A stretch of 64,000 nt of DNA, from positions 32,595-96,594 of the forward strand of contig SKOR01000037.1 in the NCBI GenBank assembly GCA_007119965.1, in the 5' to 3' direction. Shown piece after piece: positions 52,576 to 64,000 of the stretch. Both the position numbers and the translations under genes were made by a program. This DNA comes from Syntrophomonadaceae bacterium (GTDB taxonomy: Bacteria > Bacillota > Dethiobacteria > DTU022). Position 1 is the first letter of the stretch; every line of letters begins with the position of its first letter. Under the pieces are notes generated by a model that saw only the letters and a program-made list of their open reading frames with translations, had not been told where the DNA came from and searched no databases.

Positions 52576-54987
52576 TTACCCGCGTTCGTTATTGTCCTCG
52601 TCACTTTCCCTGCGCAGCGTTTCATTGAAATGTTTCAGCCTGGCGAGAACTTTTTCGTTAAAGCTGCCTTCAGGGAAGGCCCCCTCTGCGGAAACTTCGC
52701 CTGCCTCCAGGCCCGACAAGAGTTCCAGGCCTTCTGATACCGTTTTTATAGTGTAAATATTAAACTGTTCACTGGCAACAGCTTCAACTACCTCTTTTTT
52801 AAGCATCAGGCTTTTTTGGTTTTGTTCAGGGATAATGACACCCTGCTTTCCGGTAAGCCCCAGTTCCTTGCAGGCCATGAAATAGCCTTCTATTTTACTG
52901 TTTACACCGCCAACGGGCTGGATTTCGCCTTTCTGGTTAACCGACCCGGTAACTGCGAGGTCCTGGCGCAGCGGCACTTCTGCCAGGCTTGAAAGAAGGC
53001 TGAACAGTTCAGCGGCTGAAGCGCTGTCACCATCAACACCGCCGTAAGACTGCTCGAAGCAGAGGCTGGCGGTCAGGTTAAGCGGTACCAGCGAGCCGTA
53101 GCGCATCCCGAGGTAACCGCTTAATATCAGGACTCCCTTGTTATGAATCCGGCCGCTCAGCTCGCTTTCCCGCTCAATGTTGATTATCCCCTTGCGGCCG
53201 AGGTAGGTTGAAGCGGTAATCCGTGACGGCCGCCCAAAGCGGTAGTCACCCTGGTCCAGGACCGAGAGGGCGTTAACCTGCCCAACCGTTTCGCCTTCAA
53301 AATCGAGTAGAATCTGCCCTTCCCTGATTAATTCAATTACTTTCTGCTCATACTTGTTGGAACGGTACACTATTTCTTCCAGGGCTTTTTCTACCTGCTT
53401 TTTACCGACAACATCGACGCCGTCTATATCCGCCCAGGCGTCGGCTTCAAACAGAAGATCAACAATTTCGTTGAAGCGGGTACTCAGTTTATCCTGGTGC
53501 TCCGCCAGTCGCGAACTGTACTCCACGATCTCCACTACCCCCGGCCGGTCAAAGGGTCGCAGGCCCTGTTCATCGCAGTGAAAAGAGATGAAGCTGGCCA
53601 TTTTGCCGACGTTGTTATTTTCCCGTTCCATTTCAGTATCGAAATCAGCTTTAATTTTAAACAACTTGCGGAAGTCTTCATCATAATGGTAGAGCAGCTG
53701 GTACAACAGGGGTATGCCGATCACGACTACCTTGATATTGAGGGGTATCGGCTGGGGACGCAGTGTAGACATGGCAACCAGGCCGAAATGTTCGCTGATA
53801 TTTTCAATCCTGATTTCGTTAGTCCTTAAAACCCTTTTCAGGACCTGCCAGGACTGGATGCTGGTCAACACATCCCTGGCCTGCAGGATCAGGTAACCGC
53901 CGTTGGCCCGGTGCAGAGAACCGGGTTTAATCATCGAAAAGTCGGTAACCATGGTTCCGAAGCGGTTTTCGTATTCGACCCTGCCCACCAGGTTATAGTA
54001 CGAAGGGTTGGTCTCGTAGATCATCGGGGCCCCACTGGTTTCGCGGTTATCAACCAGCAGGTTAACCCCGTATCGCTTCTCACTCTGTTCCTGGCTTTGC
54101 TGTTGGAGCATAAAAAGCGGGTTTTGCTGTTCATCGTCTTCGCTGCGAAAATCAGCCAGGTTAGACAGGACATCCTCCCGGTACGCTTCCAGGTATTTTT
54201 TTACCTGCGGGTACTGTCCGTATTCTTCGATCAGCTCGCTAAAGAGGTGCCCGATCGCCGCAAGGCCGATCTTGTGATCCAGATCCTTTAACTTCTCCTT
54301 CATCTCTTTTTCCACTTTTTGAATGCGTCTCATTATTTCCATCGCCTTCAGCTGCACTTCGGACGATTTTTTTTCAAGCTCGTCTTTCTTTTCCTGCTCC
54401 AGATTGGCGTAATCTTCCTCGCTGATTTGCTCTCCTTCCTGGAGCGGGATAGTCACAAACCCTGAGCTGGTCCGCTTCAAAGCAAAGCCTTTTTCGGAGG
54501 CAACCTTATTCAGTTCCTCCAGAAGCTCAGATCTTGCTTCCTGGAATTCTTTAAAATATACCGCCTTCTGTCTTTCATAATCTTCGCCTTCAAAAGCCTT
54601 CGGTATATTTTGCTTTAAATCTTCTAGCAGTTCCTCAATGTGCAGGCAGAAATCGTGCCCTTTCCCGGCGGGGAGGTTGAGAGCAATCGGCTCCCCGGGA
54701 TTTTCAAAGTTGTAAACATAAACCCAGTCATCGGGGACCGGTTCATTAGCCGATATTTTTTCTATAATTGATTGGGCGTAGCTCGATTTACCCGTCCCGG
54801 TCAGCCCGGTCATGAATATATTGTAACCGGGGCGTTTAATCCGCAGGCCGAACTCAGTAGCCTTAACGGCTCTCTCCTGGCCGATCATCCCTTCCAGCGG
54901 GGGCACATCTGCTGTAGTTTCAAATGTATTTCCCTCCAGATCGCAGACCAGCCTGAGTTCTTCCACTTTTAATTTTTTCCAATTCAT
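52576..54987 (-). CDS. LonC-type Lon-like protease (AAA_32 ATPase-like domain plus C-terminal S16 Lon protease domain)
   Basis: Walker A GLTGTGKS. A long coiled-coil insertion rich in E/K. C-terminal Lon proteolytic domain with catalytic Ser in GGVDGDSASAAE and Lys in NSKIEG. The ATG at 54987 (MNWKKLKVEEL) has a GGGGAGAA SD and overlaps the nth stop in an ATGA arrangement. Confidence 0.75.
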   Translation of the reverse strand: MNWKKLKVEELRLVCDLEGNTFETTADVPPLEGMIGQERAVKATEFGLRIKRPGYNIFMTGLTGTGKSSYAQSIIEKISANEPVPDDWVYVYNFENPGEPIALNLPAGKGHDFCLHIEELLEDLKQNIPKAFEGEDYERQKAVYFKEFQEARSELLEELNKVASEKGFALKRTSSGFVTIPLQEGEQISEEDYANLEQEKKDELEKKSSEVQLKAMEIMRRIQKVEKEMKEKLKDLDHKIGLAAIGHLFSELIEEYGQYPQVKKYLEAYREDVLSNLADFRSEDDEQQNPLFMLQQQSQEQSEKRYGVNLLVDNRETSGAPMIYETNPSYYNLVGRVEYENRFGTMVTDFSMIKPGSLHRANGGYLILQARDVLTSIQSWQVLKRVLRTNEIRIENISEHFGLVAMSTLRPQPIPLNIKVVVIGIPLLYQLLYHYDEDFRKLFKIKADFDTEMERENNNVGKMASFISFHCDEQGLRPFDRPGVVEIVEYSSRLAEHQDKLSTRFNEIVDLLFEADAWADIDGVDVVGKKQVEKALEEIVYRSNKYEQKVIELIREGQILLDFEGETVGQVNALSVLDQGDYRFGRPSRITASTYLGRKGIINIERESELSGRIHNKGVLILSGYLGMRYGSLVPLNLTASLCFEQSYGGVDGDSASAAELFSLLSSLAEVPLRQDLAVTGSVNQKGEIQPVGGVNSKIEGYFMACKELGLTGKQGVIIPEQNQKSLMLKKEVVEAVASEQFNIYTIKTVSEGLELLSGLEAGEVSAEGAFPEGSFNEKVLARLKHFNETLRRESDEDNNERG

Positions 54988-55649
54988 CAATGTTCTCCCC
55001 TTTCTATGGCATACAAGCAAAGCCCGGCCAGGAAACAACCGGAGCACAGCGGTTTGCGGGCCTTGCATACCGTGCGCCCATGGGCAATTAACCAGTGGTG
55101 GGCATTGGTCCAGTTTTCTACCGGGATCACCTCTTTCAGCTGATCCTCAACGATCCTGACAGATTTCCCGTCAGCAAGGCCCAACCTCCCCGAAACGCGA
55201 AAAACGTGTGTATCAACAGCCAGGGCCGGCTTGCCAAAAGCGCTGCTGATAATCACGTTCGCCGTTTTTCGCCCTACACCGGGCAGTTTAATCAGCTCAT
55301 TAAAATTGTCGGGGATAAGCCCGCCGTACTGCTCTGCAATTATCCTGGCTGCTTCAACCAGGTACCTGCTTTTATGGCGGTAGAGGCCGCAGCTTTTTAA
55401 ATACGGTTCCAACTCTGACGGTTTCATGGCAGACAGGTCGCAAACAGTGGGTGCCGCCTCAAAGAGCCTGGCGGTAATCCTGTTTACCTGCTCGTCTGTT
55501 GTCTGGGCGGAAAGGACTGTAGCGACAAACAGTTGGTACGGGTTGTTAAAAACCAGGGCTGTTTTGGCCTGCGGGTAATGGGCAGCAAGCTGTTCTAAAA
55601 TCAGGGCGGCCTGGTTAAAGGTATTTTCTTCTATCGCGGTTTTTACCAT
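54987..55649 (-). CDS. nth: Endonuclease III (DNA glycosylase/AP lyase)
   Basis: HhH-GPD motif (LPGVGRKTANVI) and C-terminal 4Fe-4S cluster Cys (C-x6-C-x2-C-x5-C). Confidence 0.9.
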   Translation of the reverse strand: MVKTAIEENTFNQAALILEQLAAHYPQAKTALVFNNPYQLFVATVLSAQTTDEQVNRITARLFEAAPTVCDLSAMKPSELEPYLKSCGLYRHKSRYLVEAARIIAEQYGGLIPDNFNELIKLPGVGRKTANVIISSAFGKPALAVDTHVFRVSGRLGLADGKSVRIVEDQLKEVIPVENWTNAHHWLIAHGRTVCKARKPLCSGCFLAGLCLYAIERGEH

Positions 55650-55747
55650 AATTAATTATAGATCGGGAAACCGGCAAGGTAAAGGGCAATCAGGCCTTCT
55701 GTCCGGCTGCCCCTTTTTTTCGTAAACTGCAAGCAGGGCGGGGCTCT

Positions 55748-56950
55748 TTAAAAGCGCACCGCCCCCTCAGAGGCCATCTGCTCAATGTCATTGGGGTTGT
55801 AACCGAGCGAGTGCAGGATTTCCCGGGTATGCTCACCGTGGCGCGGCGGAGGCAGACGGACCTGCCCTGCACAGCCGGAAAACAACAGCGGGAAACCGGG
55901 CATAATCTCGGTTTCACCGGCGCTGTTTACTGATTTGATCCAGTAGCGGCCCTCACGGCCGGTGGGGTAACCGACAGCCTCGGCCAGGCTTAGAACAGGT
56001 TCGCAGCAGGCATCAAGACCGGAAAAAAGGGTTTCCCACTGCTCCCTGGTTTTTTCTTTAAATAAAGCCTGTACTTCCCTGATTAACGCTTCCCGCCCTT
56101 CCTGTTCAAATTGAAGCGCGGTCCACTGATTTTTTCCGACCGCTTCACAGAACCTCTCCCAGAAAACAGGCTCAAGCGCTCCGAGACTCATATGTTTGCC
56201 GTCGGCAGTTTCGTAAATATTATAGCAGGCGTAAGCCCCGGTAATCGGGCCGCTCCCGCGCCTGGCCATCTCTTCAGAACTGTTCATGGCCGATGCGGCC
56301 ATGGTCAGCCAGGGAAGCAAACCCCTGGTCATCGAGACATCGACATGGCTGCCTTTGCCGTCCCGCCCTCTCCGGAATAAGGCGATCAGAATACCCTGCA
56401 GGGCCATCATCGCCCCCCCGGCGATATCAGCAACCTGGATCGCAGGCATTTGCGGCGAACCGCCTTCTTCGGCACTCAGATCGAGCAGCCCTGACAGGGC
56501 GGTGTAGTTTAGATCATGGCCGGCCCTGTCCCGGTAAGGGCCAGTTTGGCCGTAACCGGTAATTGAGGCATAAACCAGGCCCCCGTTAAGCCGGCTCAGT
56601 TCGCTGTAGCCCAGCCCCAGGCGCTCCATAACCCCCGGCCTGAAACCTTCAACCAGGACATCGGCTCTGCCGGCCAGCTTCTGGACTGCCGTACGGCCCT
56701 GTCCAGTCTTCAGGTTCACGGCCAGGCTTTTCTTGTTGCGGTTCAGCTGGCGGAAAAAAGAACCGCTGCCTTCAAAAAAACGGCCGACGAACCTTGTCGG
56801 GTCGCCGGCTTCAGTATCTTCAATTTTTACTATTTCAGCCCCGTAATCCCCCATCAGCATAGTGCAGAGCGGACCCGGCAGCAGGCGGGTCAGGTCCAGG
56901 ACCGTTAAGCCCTGCAGGGGCAGGCTTTTTTCGCTGTGTTCTTCTTTCAT
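55748..56950 (-). CDS. Family III CoA-transferase (CaiB/BaiF family)
   Basis: N-terminal LQGLTVLDLTRLLPGPLCTMLMGDYGAEIVKIE motif, typical of CoA_transf_3. Size 400 aa. The start overlaps the stop of the upstream flavoprotein gene. Confidence 0.85.
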   Translation of the reverse strand: MKEEHSEKSLPLQGLTVLDLTRLLPGPLCTMLMGDYGAEIVKIEDTEAGDPTRFVGRFFEGSGSFFRQLNRNKKSLAVNLKTGQGRTAVQKLAGRADVLVEGFRPGVMERLGLGYSELSRLNGGLVYASITGYGQTGPYRDRAGHDLNYTALSGLLDLSAEEGGSPQMPAIQVADIAGGAMMALQGILIALFRRGRDGKGSHVDVSMTRGLLPWLTMAASAMNSSEEMARRGSGPITGAYACYNIYETADGKHMSLGALEPVFWERFCEAVGKNQWTALQFEQEGREALIREVQALFKEKTREQWETLFSGLDACCEPVLSLAEAVGYPTGREGRYWIKSVNSAGETEIMPGFPLLFSGCAGQVRLPPPRHGEHTREILHSLGYNPNDIEQMASEGAVRF

Positions 56951-58554
56951 TACCGGTGTGTATAATGCGGCAGTAAAATCGGCCCTACCCGGTCTTCGGC
57001 CGCATTCGTTTCTTCTAATTCCCTGTGGTATTTTTCCACGTGCTCCAGGGTGAGCTTTCCGGGAACAGGAAGATCCTTGCTTTTCGCCGCTGCGTCTCTT
57101 CCGGCCCTGCGGCCAAAAACGATAATATCGAGCAGAGAATTACCCATCAGGCGGTTGGTGCCGTGAATCCCGCCTGCTGCCTCACCGGCAACATAGAGAT
57201 TTTCAACAGTACTGTGACCGCTGTCATCAATCAGCAGCCCGCCGTTCTGGTAATGCAGGGTCGGGTAAATCAGCATCGGCTCCTTGCGAATATCAACACC
57301 GAAGCGCTGGAACTGGCGCAGCATAGCCGGCAGCTGGCGCTCGATGGTCCCTTCACCGTGAGTCAGCTCGAGAATTGGCGAATCAAGCCAGACCGCGGTA
57401 ATTCCCGTCGGCAGCGGCACACCTAACCCGCGTTCTTCACACTCGCGGATAATCGCAGACGATTCCACATCCCTCGTTTCGAGGTGGTAGACAAACTGCT
57501 CGCCGTTGATATTAAGCGGCGTAGCGCCGAGGCCGCGCGTCTTTTCAGTAACCAGGAGCCCCAGGAGCTGGGGCGGGAAAGCGCCGCCTGTCGGGTGATA
57601 CTGGATAGAGTCGGCATAAATAGTTTTCGCCCCGGCCCGGTATCCCATCACCAGGCCGTCCGCGGTGGCCCCGTAGTGGTTGCTGGTCGGAAAACCGCGG
57701 TAATGAAGCCTTCCCGATCCTCCGGTGGCGATGATTACCGTTTTAGCCCGGGCCACCATGTACTGTTCTGTTTCGATATTGTAGAGGACTGCCCCGGCGG
57801 CACGGCCCTGCTCATCAAGGAGAACCTCAACCGCCGCACAGAATTCAACAACGGTAATATCCTTGTTATAAACTTCATCCCGCAGGGTCCTCATAATTTC
57901 AGCGCCGGTATAATCGCGGGCAGCATGCATCCGTTTCCGCGATGTCCCCCCGCCGTGAATTGTAACCATCCTGCCGTCTTCTTTTTTATCAAACATGGTA
58001 CCCATGTCTTCCAGCCACTTGATCACCAGCGGTGCGTCCATAACCAGGGCGCGGGCCAGTTCGGGAACGTTCTCCAGCCTTCCCCCGCCCATCACATCAA
58101 GGTAGTGGATTGCCGGAGTATCGTTTTCCTTGTCGGCCGCCTGGATACCGCCCTGGGCCATCATCGTATTGGCGTCTCCAAAGCGCAGTTTGGTGGCTAT
58201 CAGCACATCGGCCCCTGCTGCGTGGGCATCGAGCGCTGCCGCAGCCCCGGCTCCTCCTCCGCCGATTATCAGGACGTCGACATCGTAATCCGGCTCTGCC
58301 GTGAGGTCCAGTTCAACATCGCGCAGGCGGCTCCACGATTCAAATACATCTGCCATCTCGTTGGGCAGGCGCGATCCCTTGTTGACGCCTACTTTTAGTT
58401 CGCGAAACCCGTCCTCGATATAATCGGGATGAAACTTTTGCAGCACGTCGCGGCGTTCTTCCTGGGTCATCCGCGGAAAATTGACACCGACCCGGGAGGG
58501 CCTGGTCTCTTCTACTTTCTTCATAAGCTCTCTTAACTGCGGTGTGTAAGTCAA
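56950..58554 (-). CDS. Succinate dehydrogenase/fumarate reductase flavoprotein-like subunit (FAD_binding_2) with non-covalent FAD and an N-terminal extension
   Basis: GxGxAG dinucleotide motif (LIIGGGGAGAAAA). AQGGI block lacking the His used for covalent FAD. Active-site HPTGG, HYQNGG, and AGEAAGGIHGTNRLMGNSLLD...FGRRAG. An extra roughly 85 aa at the N-terminus. Confidence 0.8.
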   Translation of the reverse strand: MTYTPQLRELMKKVEETRPSRVGVNFPRMTQEERRDVLQKFHPDYIEDGFRELKVGVNKGSRLPNEMADVFESWSRLRDVELDLTAEPDYDVDVLIIGGGGAGAAAALDAHAAGADVLIATKLRFGDANTMMAQGGIQAADKENDTPAIHYLDVMGGGRLENVPELARALVMDAPLVIKWLEDMGTMFDKKEDGRMVTIHGGGTSRKRMHAARDYTGAEIMRTLRDEVYNKDITVVEFCAAVEVLLDEQGRAAGAVLYNIETEQYMVARAKTVIIATGGSGRLHYRGFPTSNHYGATADGLVMGYRAGAKTIYADSIQYHPTGGAFPPQLLGLLVTEKTRGLGATPLNINGEQFVYHLETRDVESSAIIRECEERGLGVPLPTGITAVWLDSPILELTHGEGTIERQLPAMLRQFQRFGVDIRKEPMLIYPTLHYQNGGLLIDDSGHSTVENLYVAGEAAGGIHGTNRLMGNSLLDIIVFGRRAGRDAAAKSKDLPVPGKLTLEHVEKYHRELEETNAAEDRVGPILLPHYTHR

Positions 58555-58578
58555 CTTAATTGCTCCTCCTCTCCAGGT

Positions 58579-59262
58579 CTACTTTTCAATTTCACGATCA
58601 TTGTACATCTGCTGCAGCGTCTCATCTTCTGCTGTAACGAGTTCGTCAATTTCAGCGTCCATCTCACCGTCTTTAATTGCCCTGGCCCTTTCGACCAGGA
58701 ACGGATCGGGTTTGGCGATGTAACGGCTGAAAAGGCGCCGGGCAGTCAGGCCGGCATTGTAATGGACTATATTGGCCGGGCAGCGTGATACACAGAGCCC
58801 GCACATCAGGCAGTCAAAAGAAATATCGGCTGCCTTTTCAAAATCGCCGCGCTGGCAGTAAGCAATGTACTGCATGACATCGATATCCTGGGGGCAGACC
58901 TTGTTACAGGAACTGCAGCCCAGGCACTTGTACACTTCAGGATAAAGCTGGGCAAAGTGAGCCATCGTAGGCTTAATATCTTCAAGGTTGAACTTTGCTT
59001 TACGGCCCGGGAAAAAGGGAATCTGGGCCAGGTACATACCATCTTCCACCTTGGTCTGGCAGGCCAGGCCGACCTGGAGTTCGTAATCGTTGGCCATCCT
59101 GAAAACGGTGGCGCAGGCGCCGCAGAAGCCGGCCCGGCAGCCGCAGCCGCGGGTTAACTGGTAACCGGCGTATTCCATTGCATCCAGGATGGTCAGCGTT
59201 TCCGGGACGGTATAACGCTTACCCATTAAATATATGTCAACCATTTTTATTTCGTCTGTCAT
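58579..59262 (-). CDS. Succinate dehydrogenase/fumarate reductase iron-sulfur subunit-like protein (2Fe-2S plus two Cys clusters)
   Basis: CGCRAGFCGAC plant-type 2Fe-2S motif, then CLGCSSCNKVCP and CLMCGLCVSRCP cluster motifs. Size 227 aa. No membrane-anchor gene is adjacent. Confidence 0.8.
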   Translation of the reverse strand: MTDEIKMVDIYLMGKRYTVPETLTILDAMEYAGYQLTRGCGCRAGFCGACATVFRMANDYELQVGLACQTKVEDGMYLAQIPFFPGRKAKFNLEDIKPTMAHFAQLYPEVYKCLGCSSCNKVCPQDIDVMQYIAYCQRGDFEKAADISFDCLMCGLCVSRCPANIVHYNAGLTARRLFSRYIAKPDPFLVERARAIKDGEMDAEIDELVTAEDETLQQMYNDREIEK

Positions 59263-59276
59263 ATTATCCTCCTCAA

Positions 59277-60611
59277 TTACTCGGCAGGCGGAGCCGGGAT
59301 AAAGCCCTGATCCATCGCCGCCTTGGTCTGATCCTGGGCTCTCTTGATCGTTTCTTCGGCTTTCTTGTATATTTCTTCGCGGCTAAGTTCAATCCTGGCC
59401 AGTCCCTCTTCAATGGCCTTCATGGCTGTAGCTGTAGCTACCCGCGGAAATACTTCCCACATATCCATCGTCGGCAGGATCATTTCAGGATCCATGCCGC
59501 CCCTGGGCGCGCAGGCGGCCAGTTCTTCAGCTGCAGCGATGCACATCGTATCGGAAATCCCGGTAGCCTGGACGTCTAAAACACCGCGGAAAATTGCGGG
59601 GAAACCGAGCGAGTTATTAACCTGGTTCGGGAAATCGGAGCGGCCGGTGGAGACAATCTTCGCCCCTGCATCAATCGCTTCCCAGGGCCAGATTTCCGGA
59701 ATGGGGTTGGCGCAGGCAAAGACAATTGCGTCTTTAGCCATACTCTGAATCCACTCTTTTTTAATTGTATCCGGGCCGGGCTTGGAAAGGCCGATTAAAA
59801 CATCAGCACCCTTGCAGGCGTCTGCTGCGTCAGTGGCCAGCCCTTCACCGTTAGTACTCTGGGCCAGTTCCCATTTCACCGGGTGCTCTTCCTTAAGCTC
59901 GGTGCGGCCCTTATGCAGGATGCCCTTGCTGTCTACCATAACAACTTTCTTTAAATCTGCCCCTGCCACGCCAAGCAGGCGGACGGTACAGATATTGGCA
60001 GCCCCGGCGCCGAGCAGGACAATTTTGGCATCCTCCATCTTCTTGCCGACAATTTTCAGGGCATTGATCAGGCCGGCCACGGTAACACAGGCGGTACCCT
60101 GCTGATCATCATGCCAGATCGGAATGTGGCATTCTTCTCTCAGGCGGTCGAGGACATAAAAACACTTCGGGCTGGCAATATCCTCAAGATTTACACCGCC
60201 AAAGCAGGGCTGCATCATTTTAACAAACTTAATCAGCTCATCGGGATCTTTCGTGTCAACGCAAACCGGAAAAGCATCGACGCCGCCTAAATACTTGAAA
60301 AGCAGCGCTTTGCCTTCCATTACCGGCATACTTGCTTCGGGCCCGATATCGCCGAGGCCGAGAACCCTGGTGCCGTCAGAGACAACGGCCAGGAAATTGC
60401 CTTTATTGGTATACTCATAAACAAGTTCTTTATTATCGGCGATAGCCTTGCACGGCTCGGCAACGCCCGGAGTATACCAGATCGCAAAATCTCCTATACC
60501 GCGCACACAGCACTTTAAGTTTACTTCAATTTTACCCTTGTAAAATGGGTGCAGCCGCATTGCATCCTGGGCCGGCTTTTTCGCCTTGGCCAGTAACTCA
60601 TCTTTATTCAT
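59277..60611 (-). CDS. NAD(P)-dependent malic enzyme (short bacterial form)
   Basis: Malic enzyme N-terminal and NAD-binding domains (LAVVSDGTRVLGLGDIG, VLLGAGAANI). The start is ambiguous: ATG at 60611 (MNKDEL) has an AGGA SD, and alternative in-frame ATGs exist up to 60638. Confidence 0.85.
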   Translation of the reverse strand: MNKDELLAKAKKPAQDAMRLHPFYKGKIEVNLKCCVRGIGDFAIWYTPGVAEPCKAIADNKELVYEYTNKGNFLAVVSDGTRVLGLGDIGPEASMPVMEGKALLFKYLGGVDAFPVCVDTKDPDELIKFVKMMQPCFGGVNLEDIASPKCFYVLDRLREECHIPIWHDDQQGTACVTVAGLINALKIVGKKMEDAKIVLLGAGAANICTVRLLGVAGADLKKVVMVDSKGILHKGRTELKEEHPVKWELAQSTNGEGLATDAADACKGADVLIGLSKPGPDTIKKEWIQSMAKDAIVFACANPIPEIWPWEAIDAGAKIVSTGRSDFPNQVNNSLGFPAIFRGVLDVQATGISDTMCIAAAEELAACAPRGGMDPEMILPTMDMWEVFPRVATATAMKAIEEGLARIELSREEIYKKAEETIKRAQDQTKAAMDQGFIPAPPAE

Positions 60612-60728
60612 TGTCATTATCCTGTCCCTACTTTCCATTAAAAATTTATTTAAACCGGCTCTCTGCCTGTTTCTGACCGGCAGCCGCAGAGATCAGACTT
60701 GCTGCCCTGTCTGCGGCCATCATAAAAA

Positions 60729-61280
60729 CTACCTGGCGTATTCTTTGGCTCCTTCGGCATAAAGATCGTTGCCATATGCGTCATTGACCACTGTTGCCGG
60801 GAAATCTTCCACTTCCAGGCGGCGAATTGCCTCCGGCCCCAGCTCAGGGTAAGCTACAACCTCGCTCTTCTTGATTTTTTTGGAGAGCAGTGCGCCGGCG
60901 CCGCCCACTGCGGCCAGGTACAGGCCCTTGTGCTTAACGAGGGCGTCTTTTACAACCTGGCTGCGAAGCCCTTTGCCGATACATGCTTTCATGCCTTTTT
61001 CCAGCATCTGGGGGGTGTAAGCATCCATCCGGCCGCTTGTAGTCGGACCTGCCGAACCGATGGCCTGACCCGGTTTTTCCGGGGTCGGACCGACATAAAA
61101 TATAAACTGCCCCGTCAGGTCGATGGGCAGTTCTTCGCCTTTATCCATTAACTCAACCAACTTTTTATGGGCGGCATCTCTTGCCGTGTAAATAACTCCG
61201 CTGATCAGGACATTATCTCCCGCTTTCAGGGCCATTACATCTTCATCAGTCAGGGGAGCCTTAATTTTTTTTGTTTCCAT
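60729..61280 (-). CDS. fumB: Class I (Fe-S) fumarate hydratase beta subunit
   Basis: 183-aa Fumerase_C-type sequence (LISGVIYTARDAAHKKL, GPTTSGRMD). SD GAGGAGG. Confidence 0.85.
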   Translation of the reverse strand: METKKIKAPLTDEDVMALKAGDNVLISGVIYTARDAAHKKLVELMDKGEELPIDLTGQFIFYVGPTPEKPGQAIGSAGPTTSGRMDAYTPQMLEKGMKACIGKGLRSQVVKDALVKHKGLYLAAVGGAGALLSKKIKKSEVVAYPELGPEAIRRLEVEDFPATVVNDAYGNDLYAEGAKEYAR

Positions 61281-61307
61281 TCCGCTTTGCCTCCTCTCTT
61301 CAGAGCT

Positions 61308-62153
61308 TTAAATAATTTTTTCAAGGTGCCGGCAGGCGTGGCAGTTGATATTAACCGCTGCTGCCATGCTGGCAATATGGGACGGGTAATCTTCGATGTG
61401 CACCGCCAGGGCGAAATTCCTTCCGCCGAAGCCCTGCGGCCCCACCCCGAGATCGTTGATTTTATCCTTGATTCTTTTTTCCAGGTCGGCAAACTTACTG
61501 TTCGGGTTGCTTTCGCCCACCTTACGGAAAAGCGCTTTTTTAGCCTGTACAGCAACCTTGTCAAAAGTTCCCCCGATGCCCACACCAACTACAATTGGCG
61601 GGCAGGGGTTTGGCCCGGCCGCCTTGACATGGTTTACGACGAAATCAATAAAACCGGCTTCGCCATCCGAAGGCTTGAGCATCTTTACTGCACTCATGTT
61701 CTCACTTCCGCCGCCTTTCGGCGCAAACGAAATCTTTACCTTATCACCGGGCACAATATCGGTATAAATTACCGCAGGGGTATTATCGCCGGTATTTTTG
61801 CGTTCATAAAGCGGATCGCTGACTATTGACTTGCGCAGGTATCCTTCCTCATAACCCCGTTTTACTCCGGCATTGATCGCTTCTTCCAGCGATCCGCCGG
61901 TTAAGTGTACTTCCTGGCCCCACTCGACGAAAAACACGGCAAATCCCGTATCCTGGCAGATGGGGATTTGTTCGTCGCGGGCAATTTCAACATTCTCAAT
62001 CAGCTGTTTTAAAACTTCTTTTCCGGTTGGCGATTCTTCCGTCTCCAGGGCGTCTTTCAAGGCACTGAATACATCTTCACCCAGGTAAATATTCGCCTGT
62101 TCGCACATCTCGGCCACATGATCAGAAATAGTTGACGCGGCAAGTTCCCGCAA
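61308..62153 (-). CDS. fumA: Class I (Fe-S) fumarate hydratase alpha subunit
   Basis: Fe-S hydro-lyase alpha-type sequence with Cys ligands (PICQDTG, NPCPP). A probable TTG start at 62153 is preceded by AGGGAGGTG. The ORF-track start at 62204 would translate through the SD. Confidence 0.8.
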   Translation of the reverse strand: MRELAASTISDHVAEMCEQANIYLGEDVFSALKDALETEESPTGKEVLKQLIENVEIARDEQIPICQDTGFAVFFVEWGQEVHLTGGSLEEAINAGVKRGYEEGYLRKSIVSDPLYERKNTGDNTPAVIYTDIVPGDKVKISFAPKGGGSENMSAVKMLKPSDGEAGFIDFVVNHVKAAGPNPCPPIVVGVGIGGTFDKVAVQAKKALFRKVGESNPNSKFADLEKRIKDKINDLGVGPQGFGGRNFALAVHIEDYPSHIASMAAAVNINCHACRHLEKII

Positions 62154-62566
62154 AATCAGACACCTCCCTGTTAGTCTTAAGTACCGGGCTTCAACATTAC
62201 CCAATATAATTTTATTTTCTGCTTTTTGCTTAAAATTCCTGCCGCGAATTATAATATTTACTATAATTCTAAAATTTATTTTCTAACTTGATGACATAAC
62301 GTCATTTATTTCTATATTTTTAGATCGGCTCCCGCCTGCGAAGGGATCCGGATCTTCATTCAGCTGTAAGCAAAGCTGCCCCCTGCCTTGCGGAGGAGCA
62401 GCTATAACCGGCAGGCGATTGTATCGGGCAGGCGGCAAAAACCCTGGCGCAGGCGCTTCCATTGCCCGTAAGCGCAGAGAGATAAGAAACCCTGCGCTTA
62501 CAGATGCCGGAAACCTTCAGGTTGGCTTGAGAGACAGATCTTATCCATAGTCAGGACCTGTGCTGA

Positions 62567-63460
62567 TTATTTAGAGGCCTCTATCCTCTTAAGCAGGACT
62601 TCCCAGTCATGATCCACTTCTTCCTGCAGGGCTTCGATCCTTACATCCTCCATCTGTTTAAACCGGCGCTGTCCGCTTAAATACTCTTTTAACGGCAGCC
62701 TCTTTCCTTCCGGCTGGCAGGTCATTTTCCAGGAGACTCCGTTTATAATCTCGTAGAGGGGGAAAAACCCTGTCGCTACGGCCTGCCTGGAAAGGTGAAT
62801 CGTATCCGAAGATTCGGTTCCCCAGCCCGGCGGGCAGGGCGATAAGATATGGATAAAGCGGAACCCCCTGATTTCCCGGGCCTTTTTAAGCTTCCTTTCC
62901 ATATCTTCCGGAAAAGCAACAGTAGCCGTAGCGGCGTAAGGGATGCTGTGGGCAGCCATAATCTGCATGATATCTTTTTTCTGCCCCTCTTTAAACAGCG
63001 GATAGGGTGCGGTAGCAGTCCGCGCCCCGAAAGGCGTGGCTGAACTGGTCTGCATACCTGTATTCATGTAGGCTTCATTATCGTAGCAAACAAACATGTA
63101 GTCTTCGTTGCGCTGGGCAGCGCCGGACAGGGCCTGCAGGCCGATATCGAAAGTACCGCCGTCACCGGCCAAAACGACCACGGTCGTGTCATACTGGCCC
63201 TTCGCGTTAAGGCCCCGCCTGACACCGCTGCCGACTGAACCGGCACTGGGGAAAGGACAGTGCAGGATTGGGCACTTCAGGGCTGTTAAGGGCGGCATCC
63301 CGGTTATAATGCTCCAGCACGAAGCGGTTAAAACCAGCGCTAAATCTGGCCCGAGCGCCCTGGTCAGGTAGCGGACCGCCAGGGCTGCACCGCAGCCGGG
63401 GCAGGCGTTGTGCCCGGCATAAAGCATTTCCGACTCATGGTTCATTATGTCAGTTTTCAC
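62567..63460 (-). CDS. porB: 2-oxoacid:ferredoxin oxidoreductase beta subunit (TPP-binding; PorB/KorB type)
   Basis: TPP-binding GDGG block, N-terminal CPGCG, size 297 aa typical of 4-subunit PFOR/KOR. Confidence 0.85.
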   Translation of the reverse strand: MKTDIMNHESEMLYAGHNACPGCGAALAVRYLTRALGPDLALVLTASCWSIITGMPPLTALKCPILHCPFPSAGSVGSGVRRGLNAKGQYDTTVVVLAGDGGTFDIGLQALSGAAQRNEDYMFVCYDNEAYMNTGMQTSSATPFGARTATAPYPLFKEGQKKDIMQIMAAHSIPYAATATVAFPEDMERKLKKAREIRGFRFIHILSPCPPGWGTESSDTIHLSRQAVATGFFPLYEIINGVSWKMTCQPEGKRLPLKEYLSGQRRFKQMEDVRIEALQEEVDHDWEVLLKRIEASK

Positions 63461-64000
63461 CTTAAATCAACTCCCCACTTTTGTTCGACATGCCCTTCAG
63501 CTTTCTCTTCCCTGACAATTCGTTCCAGCATTTCAATAGTCAGGTCGATCCCGCCGGCCAGGATTATATCCTGCACATCGGGCTGATTATCCATCCCGTA
63601 GAGGGCCGAACGCAGCTCCTGGGCAAATATGCCGCCCATGCCTGTCGAACAGTTGCGGTCGATCACTATAACTTTCTCCACCCCGTGTTCTTCCAGGGCG
63701 CTGCACAGCTCCTCGCGGGGGAAGGGGCGAAACATTCTCAGCTGCAGCAGGCCTGTATCCTGCATCTTCGGCAGCGCCCAGCGAACAGTTTCAGCTGTTG
63801 CGCCGGCGGCCAGGATAACGGTTTTGGCCCCGTCCGGGATAACCGGATCAATCGCGCCGTAGCTGCGTCCGAAGGTTTCCTGGAAGCGGCTGTTAATCGC
63901 TTTGAAGGACTGCGGCGCCAGTTTCATGGCCTCGTGGCGGCCCCTGATCAGTTCGATCTGGTTGTCCCCTGTGGTCAGGCCGTGCAGGTTTGCCGGCGCA
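63457..64000 (-). CDS. porA: 2-oxoacid:ferredoxin oxidoreductase alpha subunit, C-terminal part (gene continues beyond the window)
   Basis: Alpha-subunit C-terminal domain sequence. The frame stays open without a stop to position 64000. It overlaps the porB start by 4 nt. Confidence 0.75.
   Translation of the reverse strand, partial: APANLHGLTTGDNQIELIRGRHEAMKLAPQSFKAINSRFQETFGRSYGAIDPVIPDGAKTVILAAGATAETVRWALPKMQDTGLLQLRMFRPFPREELCSALEEHGVEKVIVIDRNCSTGMGGIFAQELRSALYGMDNQPDVQDIILAGGIDLTIEMLERIVREEKAEGHVEQKWGVDLR

What the first reader, a model, noticed from the sequence alone, without database searches (positions are those of the whole stretch)
55748..64000. Contiguous minus-strand catabolic array: porA-porB, then fumA-fumB, malic enzyme, SdhB-like, SdhA-like, CoA-transferase III
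Eight tightly spaced, co-oriented genes sit together with gaps of 0 to 90 nt, apart from one roughly 360-nt spacer between porB and fumA. They encode pyruvate/2-oxoacid:ferredoxin oxidoreductase, Fe-S fumarase (alpha and beta), malic enzyme, a flavoprotein:Fe-S succinate/fumarate oxidoreductase pair, and a family III CoA-transferase. Together these cover every step from a CoA-activated C3/C4 acid through succinate, fumarate, malate and pyruvate to acetyl-CoA. That is the lower half of the methylmalonyl-CoA pathway used by syntrophic propionate oxidisers of the Pelotomaculum/Desulfotomaculum type. It could equally be a reductive branch for fumarate respiration or fermentation. Such a complete colinear arrangement with a CoA-transferase fused onto a soluble SdhAB is not a textbook operon.
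Basis: partly seen in the sequence, partly recalled or inferred. Interest (0 to 1): 0.65.

Follow-up and report, generated by a model that had tools for sequence, protein, structure and literature searches.

The report
Soluble fumarate-reductase operon beside amino-acid genes

Summary
The eight minus-strand genes are present with the stated domains and spacing. They are not one pathway array.

- **porA/porB** are the last genes of an upstream sigma-54-controlled operon: leucine dehydrogenase plus a VOR-type 2-oxoacid oxidoreductase, for branched-chain amino acids.
- **fumA-fumB-malic enzyme-FeS-flavoprotein** is an operon of its own, with a promoter block conserved in nine relatives.
- **The "SdhAB" pair** has no membrane anchor. 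An invariant Asn replaces the covalent-FAD histidine, all fumarate-site residues are kept, and the Fe-S subunit carries [2Fe-2S] plus two [4Fe-4S] motifs. This points to a soluble fumarate reductase working in the reductive direction.
- **In other genomes** the same pair most often follows an Hdr/MvhD/Flx-like module (33 of 52 informative loci) and precedes an Asp-Al_Ex-family transporter (30 loci).
- **The "CoA-transferase"** overlaps frdA by 1 nt. It travels with nth-lon even where the frd genes are absent, and it has a racemase-type active site.
- **No methylmalonyl-CoA pathway genes** lie within 20 kb upstream. The B12 mutase there is of the isobutyryl-CoA type.

A genuine methylmalonyl-CoA cluster built around this reductase family exists in another genome (L030) and looks quite different. 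Interest is moderate.

The parts
63457..64000 (-). C-terminal part of the alpha subunit of a 2-oxoacid:acceptor oxidoreductase (porA/vorA). The gene runs off the window end; the full protein is 380 aa.
   Evidence: PFOR_II hit. The full gene is seen in L001/L082. The full protein's best NCBIfam hits are PorA (347 bits) and 2-ketoisovalerate ferredoxin oxidoreductase alpha (305 bits), both below their cut-offs.
62567..63460 (-). TPP-binding beta subunit of the same oxidoreductase (porB/vorB). It is the last gene of the upstream sigma-54-dependent operon: leucine dehydrogenase, gamma subunit, GltD-like/delta-like protein, alpha, beta.
   Evidence: TPP_enzyme_C. Best NCBIfam hit is 3-methyl-2-oxobutanoate dehydrogenase subunit beta, 361.6 bits against a cut-off of 405; PorB scores 331; 2-oxoglutarate-type models score below 62 bits. 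Operon context.
62154..62566 (-). porB-fumA intergenic spacer. The porB-proximal half is GC-rich and structured and is not conserved in relatives. The fumA-proximal half is AT-rich and holds a promoter/operator block.
   Evidence: Sequence. Fold z-score -3.7. No Rfam family. Spacer length varies from 123 to 669 nt in relatives.
62216..62280 (-). Conserved AT-rich block (AATAAATTTTAGAATTATAGTAAATATTATAAT..GCAGGAATTT..AGCAGAAA). It is the probable promoter/operator of the fumA operon and contains a TATAAT.
   Evidence: It is the only part of the spacer conserved across 9 relatives whose spacers differ five-fold in length. No sigma-54 motif is present here.
61308..62153 (-). Class I (Fe-S) fumarate hydratase, alpha subunit (fumA, 281 aa from the RBS-supported TTG start).
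   Evidence: Pfam Fumerase 393 bits. NCBIfam equivalog NF004885 fumarate hydratase 399.8 bits against a cut-off of 276. GGAGGTG RBS before the TTG.
60729..61280 (-). Class I fumarate hydratase, beta subunit (fumB).
   Evidence: Fumerase_C 208.9 bits. NF005310 273.4 bits against a cut-off of 238.
59277..60638 (-). Short-form NAD(P)-dependent malic enzyme (446-453 aa, no PTA domain).
   Evidence: Pfam malic + Malic_M. NADP-dependent malic enzyme subfamily model 327 bits, N-terminal part only.
58579..59262 (-). Iron-sulfur subunit of the soluble fumarate-reductase-like pair (FrdB-like, 227 aa). It carries one [2Fe-2S] motif and two full CxxCxxCxxxC [4Fe-4S] motifs.
   Evidence: Fer2 and Fer4 dicluster hits. 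Cys42/47/50/68, Cys113/116/119/123 and Cys151/154/157/161 are invariant in 59 homologues. It lies directly upstream of the flavoprotein in 74 of 80 loci.
56950..58554 (-). Flavoprotein subunit (FrdA-like, 534 aa). It has a folded 90-aa N-terminal extension, a FAD_binding_2 core, no long C-terminal domain, and non-covalent FAD.
   Evidence: FAD_binding_2 covers residues 93-474. The catalytic residues align to E. coli SdhA, and Asn129 replaces the covalent His. Asn is found in 73 of 73 homologues. AF2 pLDDT 82; best fold match is E. coli FrdA 1kf6_A.
55748..56950 (-). Family III CoA-transferase-fold protein (400 aa) with an alpha-methylacyl-CoA-racemase-type active site. It is translationally coupled to frdA by a TAATG overlap.
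   Evidence: CoA_transf_3 355 bits. No NCBIfam equivalog is reached. SUGCT scores 201 bits and MCR 195 bits. The equivalents of MCR H126/D127/D156/E241 are present and invariant. Synteny with nth-lon without the frd genes.
54987..55649 (-). Endonuclease III (nth). This is context only: the start of the housekeeping block nth-lonC-spoU-...-dnaE-pfk-pyk that the family III gene travels with.
   Evidence: Gene calls with Pfam families in L001/L092. The same CoAT-nth-lon-dnaE order occurs in L085-L088, which lack the frd genes.

Best explanation
The region holds three functional units, not one pathway.

**Unit 1 (porA/porB).** These are the tail of a sigma-54-activated operon: leucine dehydrogenase, OFOR gamma subunit, a GltD-like NAD(P)-binding protein with a delta-like ferredoxin tail, then the alpha and beta subunits. 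It oxidatively deaminates and decarboxylates branched-chain amino acids to acyl-CoAs. It sits next to an isobutyryl-CoA-mutase, acyl-CoA-dehydrogenase and thiolase cluster.

**Unit 2 (fumA-fumB-malic enzyme-frdB-frdA).** This is an independent operon with its own conserved promoter. It encodes a fully cytoplasmic, quinone-independent C4 branch: pyruvate + CO2 + NAD(P)H <-> malate <-> fumarate -> succinate. The last step is catalysed by an anchor-less two-subunit fumarate reductase of a widespread, biochemically uncharacterised family. Its features are non-covalent FAD, an intact fumarate site, a [2Fe-2S] plus two [4Fe-4S] subunit, and a 90-aa N-terminal domain.

Electrons must reach it from a soluble donor. 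In most other genomes that donor is encoded next door as an Hdr/MvhD/Flx-like module. Here the donor is not in the 64-kb window and is unknown.

The likely role is a succinate-forming redox sink, and possibly a succinate supply, during amino-acid or acyl-CoA oxidation.

**Unit 3 (the terminal family III gene).** It is co-translated with frdA in this lineage but is ancestrally tied to nth-lon. It looks more like a 2-methylacyl-CoA racemase than a CoA-transferase.

**Shown versus inferred.** Shown: gene identities, active-site and cluster residues, operon boundaries, synteny statistics. Inferred: direction of flux, physiological role, electron donor, and the activity of the family III protein.
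For: **Separate units.**
- A unique sigma-54 promoter (TGGTACGATAATTGCA) lies 56 nt upstream of the leucine dehydrogenase gene, next to a PrdR-like activator. None lies before fumA.
- The amino-acid dehydrogenase matches leucine dehydrogenase structures at 366 bits, against 78 bits for glutamate dehydrogenase.
- A conserved AT-rich block of about 65 nt precedes fumA in 9 relatives despite spacers of 123-669 nt.

**Fumarate chemistry.**
- Both fumarase subunits pass NCBIfam equivalog cut-offs.
- The flavoprotein conserves the equivalents of E. coli SdhA H242, T254, E255, R286, H354 and R399. The corresponding motifs are present in 74 of 74 homologues.
- The position of L-aspartate oxidase Glu121 is His.
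- The AF2 model matches E. coli FrdA best.
- fumAB is linked to the pair in 29 of 80 loci across several phyla, on either side of it.

**Reductive direction.**
- Asn replaces the covalent-FAD histidine in 73 of 73 homologues. From my own knowledge: E. coli FrdA His44 mutants keep fumarate reduction but lose succinate oxidation.
- There is no anchor gene.
- The second Fe-S motif is a 4-Cys [4Fe-4S] type rather than the [3Fe-4S] type.
- An Asp-Al_Ex-family transporter follows the pair in 30 loci. From my own knowledge: this family includes the C. glutamicum succinate exporter SucE.
- P. thermopropionicum's cytoplasmic SDH2 was shown to be an NADH-linked fumarate reductase not used for propionate oxidation (PMC10308238).

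**Soluble donor module.** An HdrB-HdrC-HdrA-MvhD-FeS-FeS-FlxA-like block precedes the pair in 33 of 52 loci with enough upstream DNA.

**Family III gene.** CoAT-nth-lon-dnaE synteny occurs without the frd genes. The racemase residues are invariant in the subfamily.
Against: - No electron-donor module (Hdr, Flx, Etf, hydrogenase) is present in the window or the flanks examined. How the enzyme is reduced here is open.
- Direction is inferred from sequence features and neighbours, not measured.
- One relative (L030) embeds the same family, also with Asn, in a complete methylmalonyl-CoA cluster that could run either way.
- Malic enzymes usually run in the decarboxylating direction.
- The por block and the fum block stay adjacent in about 10 relatives, and a different VOR-type OFOR sits before fumA in L089. 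A functional tie between units 1 and 2 is therefore possible but not explained.
- The family III protein also has transferase-like N-terminal segments and scores slightly higher against SUGCT than against MCR.
Confidence: 0.55

Rival explanations
1. The array is the lower half of a methylmalonyl-CoA pathway running oxidatively: succinyl-CoA -> succinate -> fumarate -> malate -> pyruvate -> acetyl-CoA. It would degrade propionate, or propionyl-CoA derived from isoleucine or valine, in a syntroph.
For: - All the needed enzyme classes are nominally present.
- A B12 acyl-CoA mutase with MeaB lies 8-10 kb upstream.
- The organism belongs to soda-lake 'Syntrophomonadaceae' MAGs, for which syntrophy has been proposed.
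- In L030 the same FrdBA family sits in a complete cluster with SucCD, an Arg-type methylmalonyl-CoA mutase, an epimerase, a carboxyltransferase and malate dehydrogenase.
- Malic enzyme normally decarboxylates.
Against: - The local mutase has Phe and Gln at the Tyr89 and Arg207 positions, which is the isobutyryl-CoA mutase type.
- No epimerase, carboxyltransferase or SucCD lies within 20 kb upstream or in the 55 kb downstream.
- porAB is part of a leucine-dehydrogenase/VOR operon.
- The reductase has no anchor and no covalent FAD. Succinate oxidation in propionate syntrophs needs a membrane-bound, membrane-potential-driven SDH (PMC10308238, PMC5947623).
- The CoA-transferase assignment is doubtful.
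Confidence: 0.12
2. The operon is purely anabolic. It is the reductive branch of an incomplete TCA cycle. It supplies succinate or succinyl-CoA (and, through the neighbouring OFOR acting as 2-oxoglutarate synthase, glutamate) in an organism that lives by the Wood-Ljungdahl pathway.
For: - The related 'Ca. Contubernalis alkaliaceticus' is described as having an incomplete TCA cycle used for anabolism and lacking annotated succinate dehydrogenase and succinyl-CoA ligase (PMC10608574).
- These MAGs carry Wood-Ljungdahl genes (PMC6146748).
- An OFOR sits directly upstream of fumA in two lineages with different OFOR types.
- A family III enzyme could make succinyl-CoA.
Against: - The adjacent dehydrogenase is a leucine dehydrogenase, not a glutamate dehydrogenase.
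- Both OFORs score as POR/VOR-type, with only weak 2-oxoglutarate-type scores.
- A sigma-54 PrdR-like activator is typical of catabolic operons.
- The Asp-Al_Ex-family transporter next to the pair in 30 loci suggests that succinate is excreted.
- The family III protein looks like a racemase.
Confidence: 0.2
3. The flavoprotein/Fe-S pair is not a fumarate reductase. It would act on another substrate (a substituted fumarate such as mesaconate, an enoyl or acyl-CoA, or L-aspartate), with the fumarase-like genes acting as mesaconase and the family III enzyme handling the chiral 2-methyl product.
For: - No NCBIfam Sdh/Frd/Tfr equivalog cut-off is reached; the best is TfrA at 330 bits against 718.
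- The domain layout is unusual, with an N-terminal extension and a short C-terminus.
- A racemase-like gene is translationally coupled to it.
- From my own knowledge: class I fumarases are known to hydrate mesaconate.
Against: - Every dicarboxylate-binding and catalytic residue of Sdh/Frd is invariant.
- The fumarase subunits pass the fumarate-hydratase equivalog cut-offs.
- The Glu121 needed by aspartate oxidase is absent.
- The pair co-occurs with SucCD and malate dehydrogenase in L030.
- The racemase-like gene is linked to the pair in only 9 of 80 loci.
Confidence: 0.08

Closest known systems
Cytoplasmic anchor-less fumarate reductases of syntrophs: P. thermopropionicum SDH2/FrdAB (PTH_1490-1492) and S. 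fumaroxidans SdhAB-2 (Sfum_2103-2104, next to fumarase Sfum_2101-02) and FrdABEF (Sfum_4092-4095)
   Same: - A two-subunit flavoprotein/Fe-S enzyme without a transmembrane subunit.
- Adjacency to a two-subunit fumarase (Sfum_2101-2104).
- Assigned to fumarate reduction rather than to the succinate oxidation of propionate degradation (PMC10308238, PMC5947623).
   Different: - I could not retrieve those sequences, so membership in the same family is untested.
- PTH_1492 is an FrhB-like partner and FrdEF are Hdr-like partners. Neither is present in this window.
- None of those enzymes has been purified.
Thiol:fumarate reductase TfrAB of methanogens
   Same: - Best NCBIfam hits for both subunits.
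- Soluble, with no quinone.
- In relatives, a separate HdrB (CCG-domain) and HdrC directly precede the pair. This recreates in split form the Fe-S + CCG architecture of TfrB.
   Different: - Scores are far below the cut-offs: 330 against 718 bits and 51 against 385 bits.
- The window's FeS protein has no CCG domain and there is no Hdr gene in the window.
- Bacteria lack CoM/CoB.
Complex II (SdhCDAB / FrdABCD)
   Same: - The FAD_binding_2 fold and the full set of fumarate/succinate catalytic residues.
- A [2Fe-2S] N-terminal domain in the Fe-S subunit.
- Best structural match is E. coli FrdA.
   Different: - No membrane anchor.
- Asn in place of the covalent-FAD His.
- No PF02910 C-terminal domain; a 90-aa N-terminal domain instead.
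- The third cluster motif is the 4-Cys type.
FlxABCD-HdrABC (Hdr-Flox) NADH dehydrogenase/heterodisulfide reductase of Desulfovibrio
   Same: In 33 of 52 informative loci the pair's neighbours are an NAD/FAD/[2Fe-2S] FlxA-like protein, two Fe-S proteins, an MvhD-like protein and HdrA/B/C-like proteins. Hdr-Flox has been linked physiologically to fumarate reduction in D. alaskensis G20 (Meyer et al. 2014, as cited in PMC5861303).
   Different: That module is absent from this window. A direct Hdr/Flx-to-fumarate-reductase complex has not been described in the papers searched. Only a STRING-level association is noted in a preprint (10.1101/2024.09.26.615249).
mmc cluster of P. thermopropionicum / Wood-Werkman-type methylmalonyl-CoA clusters
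   Same: Fumarase, a C4-acid decarboxylating or dehydrogenating enzyme, an Sdh/Frd-like pair and an OFOR are nearby. L030 shows this reductase family can be part of such a cluster.
   Different: This locus lacks SucCD, an Arg207-type mutase, a VOC epimerase, a carboxyltransferase and malate dehydrogenase.
Alpha-methylacyl-CoA racemase (M. tuberculosis MCR, human AMACR) and SUGCT, both in family III of the CoA-transferase fold
   Same: - 36% identity to MCR, with the equivalents of R91, H126, D127, D156 and E241 conserved.
- 32% identity to SUGCT over the full length, with a transferase-like GD.TR...NRNKKS segment.
   Different: It belongs to its own subfamily, confined largely to Bacillota/Dethiobacteria MAGs. 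No NCBIfam equivalog matches. Its activity is unknown.
B. subtilis bkd operon (sigma-54/BkdR-dependent, includes leucine dehydrogenase)
   Same: A sigma-54 activator plus leucine dehydrogenase plus a branched-chain 2-oxoacid-oxidising enzyme. The comparison with bkd is from my own knowledge.
   Different: The 2-oxoacid dehydrogenase complex is replaced by a ferredoxin-type OFOR carrying a GltD-like NAD(P)-binding subunit.

Membership tests
Methylmalonyl-CoA (mmc) pathway cluster of syntrophic propionate oxidisers | Methylmalonyl-CoA mutase with the carboxylate-binding Arg207 and Tyr89 (P. shermanii numbering) | tested here: not met
   The mutase 8 kb upstream reads TMRQFSGF and EYIAQKSW, i.e. 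Phe and Gln. It scores equally against 2-hydroxyisobutyryl-CoA mutase and human MCM. L030's mutase has Arg.
Methylmalonyl-CoA (mmc) pathway cluster of syntrophic propionate oxidisers | Methylmalonyl-CoA epimerase and carboxyltransferase/transcarboxylase genes in the cluster | tested here: not met
   Neither is among the called genes 20 kb upstream or in the rest of the window. Both are present in L030. The rest of the genome was not searched.
Methylmalonyl-CoA (mmc) pathway cluster of syntrophic propionate oxidisers | Succinyl-CoA synthetase or a succinate/propionate CoA-transferase | tested here: inconclusive
   No SucCD. The only candidate is the family III protein, whose active site is racemase-like.
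Methylmalonyl-CoA (mmc) pathway cluster of syntrophic propionate oxidisers | Membrane-bound, quinone-linked succinate dehydrogenase | tested here: not met
   There is no anchor gene next to the pair, and there is no covalent-FAD His. The requirement is taken from PMC10308238.
Complex II flavoprotein (SdhA/FrdA) | FAD_binding_2 fold with the catalytic residues His, Thr, Glu, Arg, His, Arg | tested here: met
   H320, T336, E337, R361, H434 and R468 align to E. coli SdhA H242, T254, E255, R286, H354 and R399. They are invariant in A3 and in 74 of 74 loci.
Complex II flavoprotein (SdhA/FrdA) | Histidine for covalent 8-alpha-FAD attachment | tested here: not met
   The sequence is DANTMMAQGG against RSHTVAAQGG in SdhA. 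Asn is found in 73 of 73 homologues.
Complex II flavoprotein (SdhA/FrdA) | C-terminal Succ_DH_flav_C domain (PF02910) | tested here: not met
   No Pfam hit. Only about 60 residues follow the FAD domain.
Complex II iron-sulfur subunit (SdhB/FrdB) | [2Fe-2S], [4Fe-4S] and [3Fe-4S] cysteine motifs | tested here: not met
   The [2Fe-2S] motif and the first CxxCxxCxxxC motif are present. The second motif is also a full 4-Cys CxxCxxCxxxCP. TIGR00384 scores 37.8 bits against a cut-off of 88.
Thiol:fumarate reductase TfrAB | TfrA/TfrB equivalog scores and CCG (HdrB-like) domains in the Fe-S subunit | tested here: not met
   TfrA 329.9 against 718 bits; TfrB 51.4 against 385 bits. There is no CCG domain and no Hdr homologue in the window.
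Class I two-subunit fumarate hydratase | NCBIfam equivalog cut-offs for the alpha and beta subunits | tested here: met
   399.8 against 276 bits and 273.4 against 238 bits.
Family III CoA-transferase fold (PF02515) | Full-length Pfam match and the conserved active-site Asp | tested here: met
   355 bits over profile positions 1-366. D175 is invariant.
Family III CoA-transferase, specific enzymes (Frc, SUGCT-like, Mct, CaiB) | NCBIfam equivalog cut-off | tested here: not met
   The best scores are 186, 178 and 168 bits against cut-offs of 442, 750 and 700.
Alpha-methylacyl-CoA racemase | Catalytic His126/Asp156 with Asp127 and Glu241 (MCR numbering; residues as mutated and analysed in PMC10967716) | tested here: met
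   AGHDLNY, VADIAGG and GALEP align to MCR AGHDINY, VGDFGGG and GAIEP, whereas SUGCT has AGYDAVA and GAGNN. H145, D146, D175 and E260 are invariant in 14 subfamily members. Racemase activity itself cannot be tested here.
Pyruvate:ferredoxin oxidoreductase (PorABDG) | PorA/PorB equivalog scores | tested here: inconclusive
   PorB 331 against 405 bits. The VOR beta model scores higher, at 361.6 against 405. PorA 347 against 550 bits. The gamma subunit passes only the subfamily model. Operon partners are leucine dehydrogenase and a GltD-like protein.

The most novel reading that the evidence does not exclude
The FrdBA pair in this window belongs to a large, uncharacterised family of soluble fumarate reductases. 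The ancestral or predominant form would be the terminal module of an Hdr/MvhD/Flx-type flavin-based electron-bifurcating complex: 2 NADH + fumarate + oxidised ferredoxin -> 2 NAD+ + succinate + reduced ferredoxin. In the soda-lake lineage the pair has been detached from that module and combined with fumarase and malic enzyme inside a branched-chain amino-acid catabolic neighbourhood. There it would give a membrane-independent, possibly energy-conserving, fumarate sink for electrons from acyl-CoA and 2-oxoacid oxidation. The probability given is for the family-level claim that Hdr/Flx-linked members bifurcate. For the window enzyme itself using such a module encoded elsewhere, I would put it near 0.15.
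Probability: 0.3. Interest if true: 0.75.

Novelty: new variant of a known kind. Interest (0 to 1): 0.45.

Why it matters
**Annotation.** Soluble, anchor-less fumarate reductases are routinely annotated as succinate dehydrogenase. Metabolic reconstructions of uncultured anaerobes then read them as evidence for a TCA cycle or for propionate oxidation.

This locus shows concretely how that reading fails. The same eight Pfam domains that suggest a methylmalonyl-CoA pathway resolve into three things:
- a branched-chain amino-acid operon;
- a reductive C4 branch;
- a probable racemase.

**Energy metabolism.** The enzyme family behind the pair is widespread. At least 595 genome loci matched in the one scan made. 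In most genomes it is wired to an Hdr/Flx-type module and an Asp-Al_Ex-family transporter.

If that complex bifurcates electrons, fumarate would join crotonyl-CoA and heterodisulfide as a high-potential acceptor driving ferredoxin reduction. That would change energy budgets for gut Clostridia and for alkaliphilic anaerobes.

Tried and rejected
1. **Glutamate route.** I considered that the whole array might be glutamate -> 2-oxoglutarate -> succinyl-CoA -> succinate -> fumarate -> malate -> pyruvate. I rejected this because the ELFV enzyme is a leucine dehydrogenase and the OFOR scores as POR/VOR-type, not 2-oxoglutarate-type.
2. **Upstream mutase as methylmalonyl-CoA mutase.** Rejected on the Phe/Gln signature.
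3. **Hdr/Flx/MvhD homologues in the window and flanks.** The only tblastn matches were weak Fe-S similarity to the FrdB-like gene itself.
4. **Riboswitch or leader in the porB-fumA spacer.** No Rfam family matched. The structured GC-rich half (z = -3.7) is not conserved in relatives.
5. **Sigma-54 promoter before fumA.** None found.
6. **Simple sigma-70/terminator scan.** It gave no convincing terminator after porB or after the family III gene, and terminator-like hits were at background level.
7. **Literature.** No paper in the library holds the phrase 'electron-bifurcating fumarate reductase'. Searches combining Hdr/Flx/MvhD with fumarate reductase returned only indirect mentions.
8. **Names for the window proteins.** Exact-sequence cluster look-up returned none.
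9. **Annotating window 1-14 kb.** The look-up through window:8965-10515 failed because no gene with exactly that product is on record.
10. **Same family as P. thermopropionicum Sdh2A or Sfum_2103/2104?** I could not retrieve those sequences with these tools, so this is untested.

Full report
**Observation**

The region 55748-64000 holds eight consecutive minus-strand ORFs.
- a family III CoA-transferase fold;
- a FAD_binding_2 flavoprotein;
- a Fer2 plus double 4Fe-4S protein;
- malic enzyme;
- the two subunits of a class I fumarate hydratase;
- the TPP-binding beta subunit of a 2-oxoacid:ferredoxin oxidoreductase, and the C-terminal half of its alpha subunit.

The spacing is as described. Intergenic distances run from a 4-nt overlap to about 90-110 nt. 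The one long spacer is 362 nt to the longest fumA ORF, or 413 nt to the RBS-supported TTG that public gene calls use.

The flavoprotein and the CoA-transferase-like gene are separate ORFs sharing one base (TAATG), so they are not fused.

Co-orientation carries little weight, because almost the whole 64-kb window is transcribed on the minus strand. The rest of the window is housekeeping: nth, lonC, dnaE, pfk, pyk, rpsB, tsf, frr, dxr, nusA, infB, pnp, rnj, ftsK.

**Source and extended context**

Exact copies of the window's proteins occur on a 199-kb ENA metagenome contig and on NCBI assembly GCA_007136415.1. The closest named genomes are 'Syntrophomonadaceae bacterium' MAGs from Siberian soda-lake sediments. 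These are Dethiobacter-related organisms with Wood-Ljungdahl genes (PMC6146748).

The public contig let me read 20 kb beyond the window end. Going upstream from porA, the genes are:
- a 514-aa GltD-like NAD(P)-binding protein whose last ~50 residues resemble the OFOR delta-subunit ferredoxin;
- the OFOR gamma subunit;
- a 351-aa Glu/Leu/Phe/Val-family dehydrogenase;
- a PAS/sigma-54/HTH activator (best NCBIfam hit PrdR);
- ligA;
- a B12-binding small subunit and a 553-aa acyl-CoA mutase large subunit;
- MeaB and a cob(I)alamin adenosyltransferase;
- two acyl-CoA dehydrogenases and a thiolase;
- purine biosynthesis genes.

**Unit 1: porA/porB belong to a branched-chain amino-acid operon**

- The dehydrogenase matches leucine dehydrogenase crystal structures at 366 bits, against 78 bits for glutamate dehydrogenases.
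- porB scores highest against the 3-methyl-2-oxobutanoate (VOR) beta model, at 361.6 bits. PorB scores 331. Both are below the 405-bit cut-offs. The 2-oxoglutarate-type models score very weakly.
- A near-consensus sigma-54 promoter, TGGTACGATAATTGCA, lies 56 nt upstream of the leucine dehydrogenase start. It is the only such site in the 20.9-kb locus. Nothing similar precedes fumA.
- The upstream mutase has Phe at the Tyr89 position (TMRQFSGF) and Gln at the Arg207 position (EYIAQKSW) of methylmalonyl-CoA mutase. To my knowledge these two substitutions distinguish isobutyryl-CoA mutase.
- With MeaB, two acyl-CoA dehydrogenases and a thiolase alongside, the neighbourhood reads as valine/leucine/isoleucine-derived acyl-CoA catabolism. 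It does not read as a methylmalonyl-CoA pathway.
- No epimerase, carboxyltransferase or succinyl-CoA synthetase is present in the 20 kb upstream or anywhere else in the window.

**Unit 2: fumA-fumB-malic enzyme-frdB-frdA is its own operon**

I aligned the porB-fumA spacers of nine relatives. Their lengths vary from 123 to 669 nt. Only a ~65-nt AT-rich block just upstream of the fumA ribosome-binding site is conserved, and it includes a TATAAT (window about 62216-62280). The GC-rich, strongly folding half of the window's spacer (z = -3.7) is not conserved and matches no Rfam family.

**The reductase**

*Flavoprotein (534 aa).*
- The FAD_binding_2 domain spans residues 93-474 only. There is no PF02910 C-terminal domain. 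No NCBIfam equivalog is reached; the best hit is TfrA at 330 bits against a cut-off of 718.
- Aligned to E. coli SdhA, it conserves the equivalents of H242, T254, E255, R286, H354 and R399. The corresponding motifs are present in all 74 homologues examined.
- The histidine that carries covalent FAD is replaced by Asn (DANTMMAQGG) in 73 of 73 homologues.
- The Glu121 position of L-aspartate oxidase is His.
- An AlphaFold model (pLDDT 82, pTM 0.87) shows a folded 90-residue N-terminal domain. It matches E. coli FrdA best (1kf6_A, E = 2e-29, TM 0.69).

*Fe-S subunit (227 aa).* It has an SdhB-like [2Fe-2S] motif (Cys42/47/50/68) and two complete CxxCxxCxxxC motifs. All are invariant in 59 sequences. 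It therefore has a second [4Fe-4S] where classical SdhB/FrdB has a [3Fe-4S].

*No anchor.* No membrane-anchor gene is adjacent.

*Direction.* Non-covalent flavin argues for the fumarate-reducing direction. From my own knowledge: E. coli FrdA His44 mutants retain fumarate reduction but lose succinate oxidation.

**Comparative genomics of the pair**

A scan of one genome per species found at least 595 loci encoding a relative. I examined the best 80.
- The Fe-S gene directly precedes the flavoprotein in 74 of 80. The rest are cut by contig ends.
- fumA/fumB lie within 5 kb in 29, on either side, in Bacillota, a Desulfovibrio-labelled MAG and others. Malic enzyme is nearby in 15.
- The commonest context is different from the window's. 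In 33 of 52 loci with at least 7.3 kb of upstream sequence, the pair is preceded by a conserved block: HdrB-like (CCG domains), HdrC-like, HdrA-like, MvhD/FlpD, two Fe-S proteins (one Fer4_22), and an NAD_binding_1/FAD_binding_6/[2Fe-2S] protein.
- In 30 loci the pair is followed by an Asp-Al_Ex-family transporter. To my knowledge this family contains the C. glutamicum succinate exporter.
- A smaller class has only HdrC-HdrB before the pair, often with SucCD after it.
- The window's class (fumAB, malic enzyme, pair, no Hdr) is confined to the soda-lake and Dethiobacter-like MAGs.
- No Hdr/Flx/MvhD homologue is present in the window or its flanks, so the electron donor here is unknown.

**A genuine methylmalonyl-CoA cluster for comparison**

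Locus L030 (Bacillota MAG158) carries, in order: FumA, FumB, HdrC, HdrB, the Fe-S/flavoprotein pair, SucC, SucD, a mutase with Arg at the 207 position, a B12 subunit, a VOC-type epimerase, a carboxyltransferase and a malate dehydrogenase.

So this reductase family can be part of a methylmalonyl-CoA or Wood-Werkman cluster. L030 also defines what is missing from the window.

**Literature context**

- In P. thermopropionicum, succinate oxidation during propionate degradation is done by the membrane-bound, membrane-potential-dependent SDH1. The cytoplasmic SDH2 is an NADH-linked fumarate reductase not associated with propionate oxidation (PMC10308238).
- S. fumaroxidans has anchor-less FrdABEF, and an SdhAB-2 next to a two-subunit fumarase. 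Neither has been purified (PMC5947623).
- I found no paper describing an Hdr/Flx-fumarate reductase complex. One preprint notes a STRING association between HdrA and Sdh/Frd flavoproteins in Firmicutes.

**Unit 3: the family III gene**

- It matches PF02515 over its full length but reaches no equivalog.
- Against solved structures it scores 201 bits with human SUGCT and 195 bits with M. tuberculosis alpha-methylacyl-CoA racemase (MCR). Identities are 32% over 397 residues and 36% over 323 residues.
- At the active site it follows the racemase. It has AGHDLNY (MCR H126-D127; SUGCT has AGYDAVA), VADIAGG (MCR D156), GALEPVFW (MCR E241; SUGCT has GAGNNQQF) and RPGVMERLGL (MCR R91).
- H145, D146, D175 and E260 are invariant in the subfamily. 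H126, D156 and E241 are the residues analysed by mutation in PMC10967716.
- Its N-terminal GD.TR...NRNKKS segment is transferase-like.
- In a widespread Bacillota lineage the orthologue (64% identity) sits as the first gene of the same nth-lonC-...-dnaE block with no fum or frd genes upstream.
- Among the 80 reductase loci it is present in only 9.

I conclude that its adjacency to frdA reflects lineage-specific juxtaposition, although the two are co-translated here. Its activity, racemase or transferase, is unresolved, with the racemase somewhat favoured. A 2-methylacyl-CoA racemase would fit the isoleucine-derived thioesters of the surrounding catabolic genes, but this is inference.

**Mechanism proposed**

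- Malic enzyme, fumarase and the soluble reductase form a cytoplasmic route from pyruvate (+CO2) or malate to succinate.
- The reductase takes electrons through its three Fe-S clusters from a soluble partner.
- Because the fumarate/succinate couple (+33 mV) lies above the enoyl-/acyl-CoA couple and far above NAD(P)H and ferredoxin, such a sink would relieve the redox burden of the branched-chain amino-acid and acyl-CoA oxidation encoded on both sides.
- The persistent adjacency of an OFOR operon to fumA in two lineages, with different OFOR types, hints at such a link.
- Direction, donor and physiological role are inferred, not shown.

**Rivals**

- Oxidative methylmalonyl-CoA reading: 0.12.
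- Purely anabolic reductive TCA branch: 0.20.
- A substrate other than fumarate: 0.08.

**Verdict**

The locus is a new variant of a known kind, an anchor-less cytoplasmic fumarate reductase in an unusual operon. The most interesting by-product is the family-wide linkage to Hdr/Flx modules, which is not present in this window.

Noticed in passing
L015-L079 (e.g. L018 1-15000, L027, L052, L072); not in the window: In 33 of 52 informative genomes the same FeS/flavoprotein pair is the last part of a conserved block: HdrB-HdrC-HdrA-MvhD-FeS-FeS-FlxA-like. These genomes include gut Clostridia, Clostridium, Sporomusa, Cetobacterium and Christensenella. In 30 loci an Asp-Al_Ex transporter follows, and fumAB and/or malic enzyme are sometimes present. 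This is a candidate electron-bifurcating NADH:fumarate/ferredoxin oxidoreductase that I could not find described.
   Followed up: partly
L030 55-13192 (JBFMBG010000065.1, Bacillota MAG158): A complete methylmalonyl-CoA/Wood-Werkman cluster built around this reductase family: FumA, FumB, HdrC, HdrB, FeS, flavoprotein, SucC, SucD, Arg-type mutase, B12 subunit, VOC epimerase, carboxyltransferase, malate dehydrogenase.
   Followed up: yes
window 62216-62280 (minus strand): An AT-rich block of about 65 nt upstream of fumA, conserved in 9 relatives whose spacers otherwise differ in length and sequence. It is a likely promoter plus operator. The cognate regulator is unknown.
   Followed up: partly
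L082 5556-5571 (outside the window, upstream of the leucine dehydrogenase gene): A near-consensus sigma-54 promoter, TGGTACGATAATTGCA, next to a PrdR-like PAS/AAA+/HTH activator. It is unique within the 20.9-kb locus.
   Followed up: yes
L082 7315-8859 (outside the window): A 514-aa GltD/NfnB-like NAD(P)-binding Fe-S flavoprotein with a C-terminal OFOR delta-subunit-like ferredoxin tail, encoded between the gamma and alpha subunits. It suggests an OFOR wired directly to NAD(P), as in phenylglyoxylate dehydrogenase.
   Followed up: no
L094 4565-12169 (outside the window): A cluster of thiolase, two acyl-CoA dehydrogenases, cob(I)alamin adenosyltransferase, MeaB, an isobutyryl-CoA-mutase-type large subunit (Phe/Gln signature) and a B12 small subunit. 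It points to isobutyryl/butyryl-CoA isomerisation in this organism.
   Followed up: partly
L089/L090 1-2519: In a related lineage a different, four-subunit VorB-type OFOR (delta-alpha-beta-gamma; VorB 542 bits against a cut-off of 399) sits 173 nt upstream of the same fumAB-ME-frdBA-family III-nth-lon arrangement. Two different OFOR types have thus ended up before fumA.
   Followed up: partly
window 62380-62566 (minus strand): The porB-proximal half of the spacer is GC-rich with several long hairpins, for example GTAAGCGCAG...CTGCGCTTAC. The whole spacer folds with z = -3.7. It is not conserved in relatives and matches no Rfam family.
   Followed up: partly
window 55655-55683 (minus strand): A sigma-70-like TTTACC-17-TATAAT ends only about 6 nt before the nth ATG. 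It could give nth-lon a leaderless or very short-leader transcript independent of the frd operon.
   Followed up: no
window 1-55000: Almost all genes are on the minus strand, with uniformly negative GC skew. The gene order is a highly conserved housekeeping one (dnaE to ftsK). The metabolic cluster sits at the edge of this block.
   Followed up: partly
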